Shown here piece after piece: positions 12,001 through 15,000 of a DNA stretch of 43,204 nt. Each line of letters opens with the position of its first letter. Position 1 is the first letter of the stretch. The stretch lies in UHGV virus genome UHGV-0007115; one strand, given 5' to 3'. Position numbers: made by a program. Source of the stretch: a virus.

Positions 12001-15000
12001 ATGGCAAATATAAGTCGCCAGACTTCGGTGAGTATATAGGTACGTCATGGGCTGGCTGTGCAAAAGAGGCGCGCAAGGATGGCTGGCGAATAAGCAAAGA
12101 CAAAACGCGTGCTTTTGCGCCCGGGCATAAAGTTTTGAGGATTAACAAATGACTACTATAACCAAAGAGCGACTGCTGACAATCAAGCAGTGGCGCGAAA
12201 CATACGGACCTGGTAGCAACGTTGTACTGCCAGCAGAAGAAGCGGAAGAACTGGCACGAATTGCTCTGGCAGCGCTGGAAGCAGAACCGGTGGCATGGAC
12301 TGATGAAGAGGAACTGCGCGATGTCAGGAAGTATGGTTTCGGTGAGATATTTCAGTGTCCGCCAGATAAATATGCGGACCCGCGTCGTGTAATCTCGCTG
12401 TATCGCGAGCTGCCAGCACCGGTAGTGCCAGATGATTGGCAACTCGTACCTAAGAAAATAACACTGGAAATGGAATGTGCTCTATCAAAAGCTGATAGCT
12501 ATGAAATTGGTTGGCTATGGGCATTGGCAGCCGCACCTAAATACGAAGTACAGAACGCTAAACGCGTGCAAAACGCGCTTAACGCCTGCCGCGCCGCCAT
12601 GCTTCAGGGTGCCGAATCTGTAAGCCAAACTTACAGGTTGCCAGTTAATACACCTTGCCAAGATGCGCCAGCCCATATCTGGCTGCAAACAGCTGGAGTA
12701 TGGCCAGAAGATGGCGAGTTAAGCGAATTAACGTGGTGCAGCCACAATCAGCACCATGATGACACGCTATATGTTCGAGCTGACTTGGTAAATGGCAACT
12801 CTCCGGTAACTCCGGATGGTTGGATAAGCTGTAGTGAGCGAATGCCGGACGACAGGCAGGAAGTTGTTGTTCAAACTCATTCAGGGTGGCGTTACATCGC
12901 ATTTTACGAATCCCACTCAGGATTGTTCTATGACAGTCCTGAGGGTGATGTCGAATATGTTTTCGTAACCCACTGGATGCCGCTACCGGAACCACCGCAG
13001 GAGGTGAAGTAATGAACAAGTGCAACGCTCTGCTTTATGCCATGGTGATTGGTTTCGGCCTGGCTGCTGGTATCCGGGTTTATATTGCCTGGGAGTCATT
13101 AATCAATCTGGCGTGGAGTGCGATTCGTGGCTAAATCCCCCGCAGAACGCAAAGCCGCGCAGCGCGCTCGGCAGTCCGCCGCCGGTGAGCGCAAAATTGA
13201 ACTGGTGCTGGATAAGCAGGAGCAGGAAATGCTGGCGCGGAACTGCGCAGCCCGGCGCCCTGGTCGCGATCCCTATGAAATGGCCGAGTACATCGCGCTG
13301 CTGATCCGCCAGGATGATGCACGTGTGCGCGGGCGTATAAAATCGATCAGCAGAAAACTTTGCGGTAAGTGCGGCGAGAGAGTTCCCGTTAATTCATGCC
13401 CGTGTAATGGTGACTCGCAATGCTGGGTGACTAAAGGCTGGCATGAAACGAAATTAATAGTGTGACATGTCACGAGTAGATTATGCATGATGAATTTGAT
13501 GGGTCTTGAATACTGCCGCCAACTATGGCGGCTTTATTTTGCATGGTACTATTACCACAACGGTAACTATTACCACGGTGGTTATGATGCCTGCTGAACC
13601 TAAAACCTATAAACGCAAATCAACGCAATTTAAGCCACTAACAGCAATGCAGGAGGCTTATTGCCAGTCATACATCAAAACGCCTGAAAACCAGACTCAG
13701 GCAGCGATTAACGCAGGATTCTCCCCAAATACAGCGGCAGTTAAAGCCAGTGTCATGATGCGCGATGAACGCATTCAAAAACGGATTGCCGAGCTGATGG
13801 AAGAGCGCAACAAACGAATGCGTGTCAGTGCTGATTACGTTCTCATGCGCCTGGTGGAGATCGACCAGATGGACGTGATTGATATCCTCAACGACGATGG
13901 GAGCCTTAAGCCAATCCGCGAGTGGCCGAAAATCTGGCGCACTACGCTTAGCGGCTTTGATCTGTCATCGACCATCATGAACATGAACGAGGATTCGATA
14001 GAGACAATCCTCAAAAAAATTAAATGGCCTGACAAGGTGAAGAACCTTGAGCTGATTGGTAAGCACGTCGATGTCAATGCATTCAAAGAACGCCTGGATG
14101 TTAATGTGAATGTGACAATTGCTGATCGCATAGCGGCAGCCAGGAAGAGACTGAAAGAACGTCAGGATGGCAATCAGTGACAGATGCAGCGTTATCTCCT
14201 GAAGAGCAGTTGATCGAGGATATTGCAGGGTTCACTCACGATCCGCTTGGCTATGCCCTCTATGCGTTCCCGTGGGGGGAAGATGGGACTGAACTGGCAC
14301 ATGCCACCGGTCCACGTCAGTGGCAGGCTGATGCGTTCCGAGAGATACGTGATCACCTGCAGAATCCAGAGACTCGCTATCAGCCGCTTATGCTGGCACG
14401 TGCTTCGGGTCACGGTATTGGTAAATCCGCATTCATCTCAATGCTGATCAACTGGGGCATGTCCACTTGCGAGGATTGTAAGGTCGTGGTGACCGCCAAC
14501 ACCGACAACCAGCTACGAACGAAGACCTGGCCGGAAATTATCAAGTGGTCGAACCTTGCTATCACGAAAGACTGGTTTACCTGTACCGCTACCGCGATGT
14601 ACAGCAATGATCCTGGACACGACAAGCGGTGGCGAGCTGACGCAATACCCTGGTCTGAGCACAACACTGAGGCATTCGCCGGACTACACAACGAGCGCAA
14701 ACGCATCATCGTGGTATTCGATGAAGCGTCGAACATTGCGGATCTGGTGTGGGAAGTTGCCGAGGGTGCGCTAACGGACGAAGACACTGAGATTATCTGG
14801 GTGGCGTTCGGAAACCCGACGCGTAATACCGGACGTTTCCGCGAATGTTTCCGCAAATATAAACACCGCTGGAAAACTGCGCAGATTGACAGCCGGACGG
14901 TGGAAGGCACCAACAAACAGCAGTTGCAGAAATGGGTTGATGACTACGGGGAAGACAGCGACTTCGTTAAAATCCGTGTGCGCGGCATATTCCCTGATGC

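What the first reader, a model, noticed from the sequence alone, without database searches (positions are those of the whole stretch)
13118..13590. Late-switch architecture: zinc-ribbon regulator, 12-bp palindrome, terminator and operator-like sites before terS
The last early gene encodes a small basic protein with a C-terminal CxxC...CxC ribbon. It is followed by the perfect palindrome gtgacatgtcac, a strong intrinsic terminator at 13515-13543, and then a TTACC-N5-GGTAA site plus a near-copy overlapping the terS start. This resembles a Q/qut/tR-prime antitermination switch built with a different regulator.
Basis: partly seen in the sequence, partly recalled or inferred. Interest (0 to 1): 0.5.

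Follow-up and report, generated by a model that had tools for sequence, protein, structure and literature searches.

The report
Early–late gene junction of epsilon15-type prophage

Summary
All four observed features exist. The gene more likely starts at 13127 and encodes a 112-aa basic protein: ribbon-helix-helix-like fold plus a Cys cluster, PHROG 536, function untested. The palindrome GTGACATGTCAC (13462-13473) overlaps its stop codon. A 12-bp palindrome is not rare in 43 kb (7 found, 10.5 expected). However, GTGAC-NN-GTCAC sits at the stop codon of this gene family in 100 of 116 loci, including N15 and P2-like phages. It is almost certainly the protein's cognate site. The hairpin at 13515-13541 is the early operon's intrinsic terminator. 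Its closeness to the palindrome is accidental: 13474-13511 is the scar of a deleted 70-aa ORF, and the spacing in relatives ranges from 22 to about 227 nt. The TTACC-N5-GGTAA sites belong to a phage-wide operator set (16 sites against 0.66 expected) that flanks the repressor gene and precedes several late units. They overlap a conserved extended -10 promoter for terS. The protein family also occurs alongside Q-type antiterminators and Ogr in other phages. The Q/qut/tR' reading is only partly supported. The most likely reading is an operator-controlled terS promoter plus a palindrome-bound boundary regulator, but its direction of action is unresolved.

The parts
13012..13134 (+). 40-aa hydrophobic ORF (PHROG 5525). 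Its stop overlaps the regulator's start (GTGGCTAA). Context only.
13127..13465 (+). Regulator gene: 112 aa, pI 9.6. It has an N-terminal basic helix, a ribbon-helix-helix-like core and a C-terminal Cys cluster (C79, C82, C91/C93, C99).
13462..13473 (.). Palindrome GTGACATGTCAC overlapping the regulator's TGA stop; inferred cognate DNA site of the regulator family.
   Evidence: 100 of 116 loci; N15 gp46; it lies inside the ORF of distant homologues
13474..13511 (+). Deletion scar. 13483-13509 (ATGCATGATGAATTTGATGGGTCTTGA) is the remnant of the 3' end of a 70-aa ORF (PHROG 1541) that close relatives carry between palindrome and terminator. It varies among relatives.
13515..13541 (+). Intrinsic terminator of the early-right operon (GCCGCCAACTATGGCGGC followed by TTTATTTTG).
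   Evidence: invariant in relatives and duplicated in phage VB_ST_E15
13544..13552 (+). Putative extended -10 promoter for terS (TGGTACTAT, i.e. TGnTAnnAT); predicted transcription start near 13559-13561. Inferred only.
   Evidence: SNP pattern among relatives: TG, TA and AT are fixed while n and hexamer position 3 vary (TGGTATTAT, TGTTACTAT, TGTTAGTAT). A TGGTATGAT lies before terS in Samsonia locus L030.
13552..13566 (.). Operator O1, TTACCACAACGGTAA (perfect TTACC-N5-GGTAA). It would cover positions -7 to +8 of the putative terS promoter.
   Evidence: half-sites invariant and N5 variable in relatives
13570..13584 (.). Operator O2, TTACCACGGTGGTTA (one mismatch). It covers the Shine-Dalgarno GGTGG and abuts the terS start. 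Part of the direct repeat ACTATTACCAC x2 (13548-13558 and 13566-13576).
13587..14180 (+). terS, small terminase subunit (Terminase_2).
   Evidence: (E 1e-29)
15703..15722 (-). Hairpin plus T-run: minus-strand terminator of the convergent moron gene 15743-16165. It lies just after terL.
15727..15738 (.). Second copy of the palindrome (GTGCCATGTCAC, one mismatch), between that hairpin and the stop of the moron gene. The copy is perfect at the same place in relatives.

Best explanation
The region is the junction between the early-right operon and the packaging (terS-terL) unit of an epsilon15/phiV10-type prophage.

Shown:
- The last early gene encodes a member of a conserved but uncharacterised phage protein family with an RHH-like fold and a Cys cluster.
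- The family's genes carry GTGAC-NN-GTCAC at, or in some lineages within or a short way from, their own 3' end.
- A canonical intrinsic terminator closes the operon.
- Two copies of a phage-wide operator motif lie over the terS leader.

Inferred:
(1) The protein binds the palindrome as a dimer.
(2) terS is transcribed from its own extended -10 promoter (13544-13552). That promoter is switched by whichever protein binds the TTACC-N5-GGTAA operators, most probably the immunity repressor and/or the Cro-like protein. The same motif forms OL/OR-like clusters around the repressor gene.
(3) The palindrome-bound protein works as a boundary-type, most likely negative (roadblock or insulating) regulator at the ends of transcription units and in front of the gene that follows the site. 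It is not a Q-like antiterminator acting on a promoter-proximal terminator.

Step (3) is the weakest. The direction of regulation cannot be read from sequence.
For: Protein and site are linked:
- 100 of 116 loci have GTGACNNGTCAC within -10 to +20 nt of the stop. Most of the rest are truncations or have the site 0.2-1.3 kb away in the same operon.
- The site is kept where the linker to the stop codon varies (Xenorhabdus).
- It is kept at 38% protein identity in N15 gp46, in a Yersinia P2-like phage and in Vibrio phage K308.
- Two distant subfamilies carry it inside the ORF, encoding RDMSR.
- Each 12-mer is expected about 0.006 times per 6-kb locus.
- 27 of 120 viral contigs that hold the 14-mer CGTGACATGTCACG also encode the protein within the stretch of DNA held.

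Fold:
- A few family members touch RHH_5, RHH_1 or RepB-RCR_reg at E 0.01-0.07.

Terminator as the operon end:
- At least 8 unrelated hairpin sequences follow the site in different lineages.
- The spacing is variable, and the window's linker is a deletion scar.

Other copies of the palindrome:
- They lie at unit ends where read-through would be antisense to late genes. One follows the moron convergent on terL. Another precedes the reversed portal and terminase genes of P2-like prophages.
- Others lie 2-31 nt in front of a ribosome-binding site or ATG: ORF70, N15 gp47, Proteus genes, K308 terS. These are positions typical of repression, not activation.

The family coexists with Q or Ogr.

Operators:
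- 16 sites against 0.66 expected.
- They cluster on both sides of the HTH_3 repressor gene and lie before terS, the portal unit, the tailspike, the antirepressor region and an early gene. The layout is syntenic in two Salmonella relatives.
- They are absent from non-epsilon15 phage types that carry the regulator.

Promoter: SNP pattern.
Against: - No binding, transcript or reporter data exist. The palindrome string appears in no paper of the searchable library.
- In epsilon15-type phages and in Vibrio phage K308 no other late regulator was recognised, and this gene is the last early gene before the late genes. That position is the one a late activator or antiterminator would occupy.
- K308 has a promoter-like site followed by a strong terminator right before its holin gene, downstream of the regulator.
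- A profile of the family finds TraR and YbiI, RNA-polymerase secondary-channel zinc-finger proteins, as its best PDB matches (E 0.05-0.07; hhalign probability 57%). This hints at RNA polymerase contact.
- In two of the three sites of epsilon15-like phages the genes downstream of the terminator are co-oriented late genes, so read-through would be useful there.
- The identity of the TTACC-binding protein is inferred only from where the sites lie.
Confidence: 0.4

Rival explanations
1. Read-through (antitermination) late switch. The protein binds the palindrome, or is loaded there onto RNA polymerase arriving from the early operon. Polymerase then passes the terminator at 13515-13541, and the other boundary terminators, into the packaging and late genes. 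This would be a new, non-homologous functional analogue of Q, or of N acting at nutR-tR1.
For: - The gene is the last early gene directly before the late genes in epsilon15-type phages and in Vibrio K308.
- The order 'gene stop, palindrome, terminator' recurs with at least 8 unrelated hairpins.
- K308 has a lambda-like promoter plus strong terminator in front of its holin gene.
- There is weak TraR/YbiI-like zinc-finger similarity.
- No other late regulator was found in the window.
Against: - No promoter is conserved at the site, and spacing to the terminator varies from 22 to 227 nt with a deletion scar or an ORF in between.
- The family coexists with Q21-type Q, Q82-type Q and Ogr.
- The site after terL precedes a minus-strand terminator, where read-through would be antisense to terL.
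- In P2-like prophages read-through would run antisense into the portal and terminase genes.
- Several sites abut a ribosome-binding site with no terminator downstream.
- No Pfam Q or DksA/TraR membership.
Confidence: 0.22
2. Non-transcriptional DNA organiser. The protein bridges the 2-3 palindromes of the phage genome in a MatP/matS-like manner, for example to loop or compact DNA or to mark it for replication or packaging. On this reading, the sites are intergenic only because intergenic DNA is where a site can be placed.
For: - There are 2-3 identical sites per genome in the epsilon15-like phages VB_ST_E15 and 66FD, in N15 and in K308.
- The half-sites GTGAC/GTCAC are those of matS, GTGAC[AG]N[TC]GTCAC (PMC3603311).
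- One N15 site lies inside repA.
- A binding site placed in or beside the protein's own gene is typical of cis-acting DNA transactions.
Against: - There is no sequence similarity to MatP (hhalign probability 0.3%; a Smith-Waterman score reached by 371 of 2000 shuffles).
- The site is 12 bp, not 13.
- The protein lacks MatP's four-helix bundle and coiled coil.
- The strong association of the sites with stop codons, terminators and ribosome-binding sites is left unexplained.
Confidence: 0.1
3. The element acts in RNA. GUGA-CNNG-UCAC would form a short hairpin in 3' or 5' untranslated regions, bound by the arginine-rich N-terminal helix. It would control translation of the next cistron, or RNA 3'-end formation or stability, in an N/boxB-like way.
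For: - The site is always in transcribed DNA, often 2-20 nt before a Shine-Dalgarno sequence or just before a terminator.
- Only the two central bases vary.
- RNA folding predicts the small hairpin.
- The N-terminus AERKAAQRARQ is arginine-rich, with R8 and R13 nearly invariant.
Against: - The stem never covaries; it is sequence-invariant across distant phages. That pattern fits half-site recognition in duplex DNA.
- A 4-bp stem is marginal.
- The protein is predicted to be well folded and RHH-like, a DNA-binding fold.
- One N15 site is in the opposite orientation relative to transcription.
Confidence: 0.08
4. The palindrome is not bound by this protein. It would be a site for a host factor, or a recombination boundary that travels with the gene by linkage.
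For: Sequence after the palindrome is highly variable between otherwise near-identical phages: ORF70, a deletion, or LexA-box morons. Most viral contigs holding the 14-mer show no regulator within the DNA held (93 of 120).
Against: - Many of those 93 are chance hits; a 14-mer is expected hundreds of times in the collection, and the hits span 35-73% G+C and lie mostly inside ORFs. Others are short stretches of longer contigs.
- The site is conserved at the gene's end from E. coli to Vibrio, and inside the ORF of distant homologues. That is hard to explain by linkage alone.
Confidence: 0.05

Closest known systems
Lambda Q / QBE-PR' / tR' late antitermination switch (also phage 82, phage 21, N15 gp40)
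   Same: The regulator gene is the last early gene. Its DNA site lies just after the gene, an intrinsic terminator follows, and late genes come next. Lambda Q also contains a zinc finger (my own knowledge).
   Different: There is no homology to any Q family. No promoter is conserved at the site, and spacing to the terminator varies, with an ORF or a scar in between. There are several sites per genome. The family coexists with real Q proteins.
Ribbon-helix-helix repressors (Arc, Mnt, CopG, ParD/TacA antitoxins)
   Different: It has an extra N-terminal basic helix and a C-terminal Cys cluster. The site lies at the 3' end of the gene, far from its promoter. No Pfam RHH model is passed.
MatP/matS of enterobacteria
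   Same: The half-sites are identical: GTGAC...GTCAC (matS consensus from PMC3603311). Both contain an RHH, there are several sites per replicon, and the host range overlaps (Enterobacterales, Vibrio, Aeromonas).
   Different: The spacer is 2 bp, not 3. No sequence similarity is detectable. The protein has no four-helix bundle or coiled coil.
TraR/DksA-type C4 zinc-finger proteins (F TraR, YbiI; TraR-like genes are common in phages, my own knowledge)
   Same: They are the best PDB profile matches. The alignment covers a helix, then CxxCGxxhP, then G...C.
Dispersed operator sets of temperate phages (P1 C1 operators, mycobacteriophage L5 'stoperators'; my own knowledge). This comparison is for the TTACC-N5-GGTAA sites.
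   Same: One operator motif occurs 11-16 times across the genome, at the immunity region and in front of late units. The phage also has a P1-type C4 antisense RNA upstream of its antirepressor gene.
   Different: The motif is a symmetric 15-17 bp palindrome, whereas the P1 and L5 sites are asymmetric. The binding protein has not been identified.
Lambda N / nutR-tR1
   Same: The order is 'gene stop, short symmetric element, terminator' within an early operon, and the protein has an arginine-rich N-terminus.
   Different: N is disordered and binds an RNA hairpin whose stem varies between phages. Here the protein is predicted to be folded and the element is sequence-invariant.

Membership tests
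Lambda-type Q antitermination switch | Regulator belongs to a Q family (Pfam Antiterm / Phage_antitermQ / Phage_antiter_Q) | tested here: not met
   No Pfam hit for the window protein or for any of 54 family members. The same scan finds Q in N15 gp40 and in locus L012.
Lambda-type Q antitermination switch | Binding element embedded in or next to a constitutive late promoter | tested here: not met
   There is only a weak 9/12 promoter match in the window, partly inside a deletion scar. It is absent from the commonest relatives and not conserved across lineages.
Lambda-type Q antitermination switch | Promoter-proximal terminator forming a conserved short leader | tested here: not met
   The terminator is real, but its distance from the palindrome is 22, 41 or about 227 nt, with unrelated sequence or a 70-aa ORF in between.
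Lambda-type Q antitermination switch | Regulator-dependent read-through in vivo | not testable with these tools
   This needs Term-seq or reporter assays.
Ribbon-helix-helix DNA-binding proteins | Strand-helix-helix fold that forms a dimer | tested here: inconclusive
Ribbon-helix-helix DNA-binding proteins | Passes a Pfam RHH model | tested here: not met
   Only 2+1 of 54 members touch RHH_5 or RHH_1, at E 0.013-0.07, below threshold.
Ribbon-helix-helix DNA-binding proteins | Short (pseudo)palindromic cognate site linked to the gene | tested here: met
   GTGACNNGTCAC lies at the stop codon in 100 of 116 loci and in N15, a Yersinia P2-like phage and Vibrio phages.
MatP/matS | 13-bp site GTGAC[AG]N[TC]GTCAC | tested here: not met
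   The site is 12 bp with a 2-bp spacer; consensus from PMC3603311.
MatP/matS | Sequence homology to MatP | tested here: not met
   hhalign probability is 0.3%. The local alignment score is no better than shuffles.
DksA/TraR C4 zinc finger | CxxC-N17-CxxC motif and a Pfam zf-dskA_traR hit | tested here: not met
   The Cys pattern is CxxC...C(x)C...C. None of 54 members gives a Pfam hit. Only weak profile similarity is seen.
Intrinsic (Rho-independent) terminator | G+C-rich hairpin directly followed by a T tract, at the end of a gene array | tested here: met
   conserved or duplicated in relatives
Phage-wide repressor operator set | One motif, many copies, clustered around the repressor gene and at the starts of units | tested here: met
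Phage-wide repressor operator set | Bound by the immunity repressor | not testable with these tools
   Inferred only from the OL/OR-like arrangement.

The most novel reading that the evidence does not exclude
PHROG 536 proteins would be a fourth, non-homologous class of phage late or read-through regulators. An RHH dimer would recognise a matS-like palindrome placed just upstream of boundary terminators. A TraR-like zinc module would then engage RNA polymerase and make it pass those terminators. This would explain how epsilon15-type and K308-type phages, which have no recognisable Q, Ogr or Mor, turn on packaging and structural genes.
Probability: 0.2. Interest if true: 0.75.

Novelty: new variant of a known kind. 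Interest (0 to 1): 0.45.

Why it matters
- Late-gene control in epsilon15/phiV10-type podophages is undescribed in the papers I could reach. These phages are used for O157 and Salmonella detection and serotype conversion.
- This analysis gives three testable elements: a protein-site pair conserved across four phage architectures, an operator-covered terS promoter, and a dispersed operator set.
- The regulator-palindrome pair is widespread (786 proteins at E 0.001 or better in the homology search; also found in Vibrio, Yersinia, Klebsiella and N15-like phages). It is annotated only as 'hypothetical' or 'transcriptional regulator'.
- Knowing its site makes its function directly testable.
- If it proved to be an antiterminator, it would add a new solution to a classic problem. 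If it is a boundary repressor, it would show how compact phage genomes insulate convergent units and morons.

Tried and rejected
- **Sequence searches on the regulator.** Pfam, NCBIfam and PDB sequence searches gave nothing.
- **Fold searches.** Foldseek against PDB and BFVD returned only a fragment of the same family. The afdb50 library was unavailable.
- **TraR/DksA membership.** The resemblance is weak and no Pfam model is passed.
- **A promoter with the palindrome as -35 or in the spacer.** This works in the window, L008 and L010 but not in the ORF70 type or in Xenorhabdus, so I rejected it as a conserved feature.
- **A promoter inside the regulator's 3' codons, with the palindrome at +1.** It is not conserved (my reading).
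- **The TTACC sites as targets of the RHH protein.** Rejected: the motif is absent from every non-epsilon15 locus that has the protein.
- **The TTACC sites as class II activator sites for terS.** Rejected: the second site abuts the ATG.
- **The TTACC sites as pac or TerS sites.** Rejected: there are 16 copies, including the immunity region.
- **Rfam.** Nothing was found in the region.
- **Literature.** The epsilon15 genome paper and the N15 antC paper were not held. The vB_EcoP_ZX5 paper says nothing on late control. The palindrome string appears in no held paper.
- **Alignment-based locus search.** It failed for lack of conserved stretches.
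Full report
**Identity of the window.** Bases 12965-14200 are 98% identical to Escherichia phage EC.W1-9 and about 93% to TL-2011b, vB_EcoP_ZX5 and the O157 typing phages. The deposited phiV10 genome starts at window base 13466. The gene order is integrase, early-left genes, HTH repressor, replication genes, small early genes, terS, terL, portal and so on. The window is therefore an epsilon15/phiV10-type (Uetakevirus) prophage. The finding lies at the end of its early-right operon.

**The gene.**
- ORF 13118-13465 exists. All homologues are 112 aa and begin MAKSPAERK, and TL-2011b gp20 is annotated at that length. 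GTG 13127 is therefore the likelier start. It overlaps the stop of a 40-aa hydrophobic ORF.
- The protein is basic, pI 9.6.
- It matches PHROG 536 'transcriptional regulator' at E 1e-53. It matches no Pfam or NCBIfam model and no solved structure by sequence.
- The family is compact: 786 proteins at E 0.001 or better in the homology search and 149 representatives at 50% identity.
- An alignment of 54 diverse members shows invariant C79 and C82 and nearly invariant R8, R13, E54, L59, P87, G95 and C99.
- AlphaFold2 gives a confident model (pLDDT 92.7). It has helix 5-18, an extended segment, helices 30-42 and 52-74, a Cys-rich knot and helix 100-108.
- A profile search of PDB sequences puts TraR (twice) and YbiI first, at E 0.05-0.07. 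The alignment covers helix-CxxCGxxhP...G...C. hhalign gives 57% probability.
- No family member passes zf-dskA_traR, and only three touch RHH models weakly.
- I read this as an RHH-like DNA-binding core with an unusual zinc module. Membership of any named family is not established.

**The palindrome.**
- GTGACATGTCAC is exact at 13462-13473 and overlaps the TGA stop. A perfect 12-bp palindrome is not unusual in 43 kb: 7 are present and 10.5 are expected.
- What is unusual is its conservation. I collected 116 loci that encode homologues: 32 species genomes, 80 viral contigs, annotated phage records and the window itself.
- In 100 of them GTGAC-NN-GTCAC lies within -10 to +20 nt of the stop. Most exceptions are truncated genes, truncated loci, or lineages with the site 0.2-1.3 kb away in the same operon.
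- In Xenorhabdus the 5-nt linker between stop and palindrome varies while the palindrome does not.
- N15 gp46 (38% identity) ends in GCG-TGA-CTGGTCACG. A Yersinia P2-like phage has GTGACGCGTCAC at the stop.
- Two distant subfamilies carry CGTGACATGTCACG inside the ORF, encoding RDMSR.
- Only the two central bases vary (AT, CT, GT, AC, AG, TG, GC). This is the pattern of a dimer reading two half-sites.
- Of 120 viral contigs holding the 14-mer, 27 encode the protein in the DNA held. Most of the others look like chance hits inside ORFs, or are short stretches of longer contigs.
- I conclude that the palindrome is the cognate site of this protein family. This is inferred, not shown.

**More copies of the palindrome.**
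- The window has a second copy with one mismatch at 15727-15738. It lies between terL's downstream hairpin and the stop of a convergent moron gene.
- The copy is perfect at that place in Citrobacter, Klebsiella, Superficieibacter and Erwinia loci.
- The Salmonella epsilon15-like phages VB_ST_E15 and 66FD have three copies: after the regulator, after terL, and at the end of the structural operon before the tailspike region.
- In each case the order is 'gene stop, palindrome, 2-22 nt, intrinsic terminator', read in the direction of the gene that ends there.
- N15 has three identical copies: at the gp46 stop, upstream of the immA region, and inside repA.
- Vibrio phage K308 has three. One lies 31 nt before the terS ATG and one 20 nt before another gene.
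- Elsewhere the site is followed directly by a ribosome-binding site and an ORF. Examples are a 70-aa ORF in E. coli phages, gp47 in N15 and early genes in Proteus.

**The terminator and the spacing.**
- The hairpin 13515-13532 plus TTTATTTTG is a canonical intrinsic terminator (-12.6 to -13.8 kcal/mol). It is invariant among close relatives and tandemly duplicated in VB_ST_E15.
- Its distance from the palindrome is not conserved. The commonest relatives carry a 70-aa ORF (PHROG 1541) between the two.
- The window retains only the last 27 nt of that ORF (ATGCATGATGAATTTGATGGGTCTTGA). So 13474-13511 is a deletion scar, and it is SNP-rich among relatives.
- Epsilon15-like Salmonella phages have an unrelated 22-nt linker.
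- The only promoter-like match at the palindrome is GTGACA-N18-CATGAT, 9 of 12. It depends on the scar and is missing in the ORF70 type.
- At least eight unrelated hairpins follow the palindrome in different lineages. This is what one expects if the regulator is the last gene of an operon.
- It does not explain the 2-5 nt pairing at the other two sites. That pairing keeps a termination-related role in play.

**The operator-like sites.**
- TTACC-N5-GGTAA occurs 16 times at one mismatch or fewer (12 perfect), against 0.66 expected.
- The sites form pairs on both sides of the HTH_3 repressor gene 6621-7205, at 6487/6549 and at 7261/7309 with 7646. This is an OL/OR-like layout.
- They also precede an early gene (9609/9671), terS (13552/13570), the portal unit (16764), the antirepressor region (34215, 35262, 35355) and the tailspike (36474).
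- VB_ST_E15 and 66FD have 11 and 10 perfect sites at syntenic places.
- The motif is absent from all P2-like, lambdoid and N15-like loci that carry the RHH protein. It therefore belongs to the epsilon15 backbone, presumably to its repressor and/or Cro-like protein, and not to the 13127-13465 product.
- Among close relatives the half-sites are invariant while the N5 spacer varies.
- Just upstream, TGGTACTAT (13544-13552) fits an extended -10 element. Its variants are TGGTATTAT, TGTTACTAT and TGTTAGTAT. They keep TG, TA and AT and vary elsewhere.
- The predicted start near 13559 lies inside O1, and O2 covers the Shine-Dalgarno sequence. This is a repressor-type geometry. An activator geometry is excluded by the 3-nt gap to the ATG.

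**Does the family act as the late switch?**
- For: in epsilon15-type phages and in K308 it is the last early gene before late genes. No Q, Ogr or Mor homologue was found in the window; the only other 'activator' is a PerC-like moron. K308 has a promoter-like site followed by a 12-bp-stem terminator right before its holin gene.
- Against: N15 has a Q21-type Q (gp40, E 1e-110). A Citrobacter lambdoid prophage has a Q82-type Q downstream of the regulator. A Yersinia P2-like phage has Ogr.
- Also against: in P2-like prophages the DNA beyond the terminator holds reversed portal and terminase genes. At the terL site the terminator belongs to a minus-strand moron. Read-through there would be antisense to late genes.

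**Verdict.**
Its interpretation is partly supported.
- The locus is the early/late junction, and both the protein and the palindrome are real regulatory parts. The assembly is not a Q/qut/tR' unit.
- My preferred reading (0.4) has three parts. terS has its own operator-covered promoter. The terminator simply ends the early operon. The palindrome-bound RHH-type protein is a boundary or roadblock-type regulator.
- A read-through switch remains a live rival (0.22). A MatP-like organiser (0.10), an RNA-level element (0.08) and a site bound by something else (0.05) follow.
- The matS-like half-sites are a resemblance only (matS consensus from PMC3603311). There is no detectable homology to MatP.
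- No paper in the searchable library mentions the palindrome.

Noticed in passing
window 136, 6487, 6549, 7261, 7309, 7646, 9609, 9671, 13552, 13570, 16764, 34215, 35262, 35355, 36474, 39574: TTACC-N5-GGTAA occurs 16 times (12 perfect) against 0.66 expected. It forms OL/OR-like clusters around the repressor gene and lies in front of several late units, a dispersed operator set reminiscent of P1 C1 operators. The layout is syntenic in two Salmonella relatives.
   Followed up: partly
window 15703-15738: A second copy of the regulator's palindrome (one mismatch) lies next to the minus-strand terminator of a convergent moron gene (15743-16165, PHROG 4846) just after terL. The copy is perfect at this place in relatives.
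   Followed up: yes
window 35043-35225 (-): Rfam finds a C4 antisense RNA (78.6 bits) and isrK (74.7 bits) directly upstream of the Bro-N/P22_AR_N antirepressor gene 34302-35039. This is a P1/P7 immI-like antirepressor control module in a podophage.
   Followed up: no
window 16365-16441 (-): A tRNA-Arg (TCT) gene lies on the minus strand between terL and the portal unit. Minus-strand terminators lie at 16185-16201 and 16286-16321, so the late rightward region is interrupted by a leftward block.
   Followed up: partly
window 3378-3677 (-): A PerC-family transcriptional activator homologue (Pfam E 6e-7; PHROG 868) lies in the early-left region. PerC/Pch proteins activate LEE in pathogenic E. coli.
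   Followed up: no
window 11407-11941 (+): Three tandem small basic ORFs of 58, 58 and 62 aa. The last two are paralogues that begin MKNRKAK (PHROG 1380). Function unknown.
   Followed up: no
window 7957-8814 (+): The DnaT/HTH_36 replication protein contains a tandem peptide repeat, (PKNGMLND) x3-4.
   Followed up: no
window 7741-7941 (+) and 35390-36118 (+): Two further small Cys-rich proteins with endonuclease VII / Lar-like zinc motifs (PHROGs 1081 and 6762). Each lies next to TTACC operators.
   Followed up: no
L240 (Vibrio phage K308) 33227-33514 and 35942-35975: Downstream of the regulator homologue there is a palindrome copy, then a promoter-like site (33336-33364), then a 12-bp-stem terminator (33469-33495) abutting the holin gene. 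This is a lambda PR'-tR'-like leader in a phage with no annotated Q. Another palindrome lies 31 nt before the terS ATG, and a true 13-bp matS-type site lies at 19491.
   Followed up: partly
L239 (phage N15) 28550, 33237, 39269: N15 has three identical GTGACTGGTCAC sites: at the gp46 stop, about 25 nt upstream of a promoter-like TTGACG-N18-TAGAGT in the immA (antirepressor) region, and inside repA.
   Followed up: partly
L004, L005, L009, L084, L088, L108, L113; L238 about 7460; L237 about 4060: LexA-box promoters (CTGT-N8-ACAG) driving UmuD-like or other morons recur just downstream of the regulator-palindrome module in epsilon15-like, P2-like and N15 phages.
   Followed up: no
L116 (Salmonella phage VB_ST_E15) 39880-39907 and 1-40: The early terminator hairpin is tandemly duplicated (two copies of GGCCGCCGACTATGGCGGCTTTGTTTTG).
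   Followed up: no
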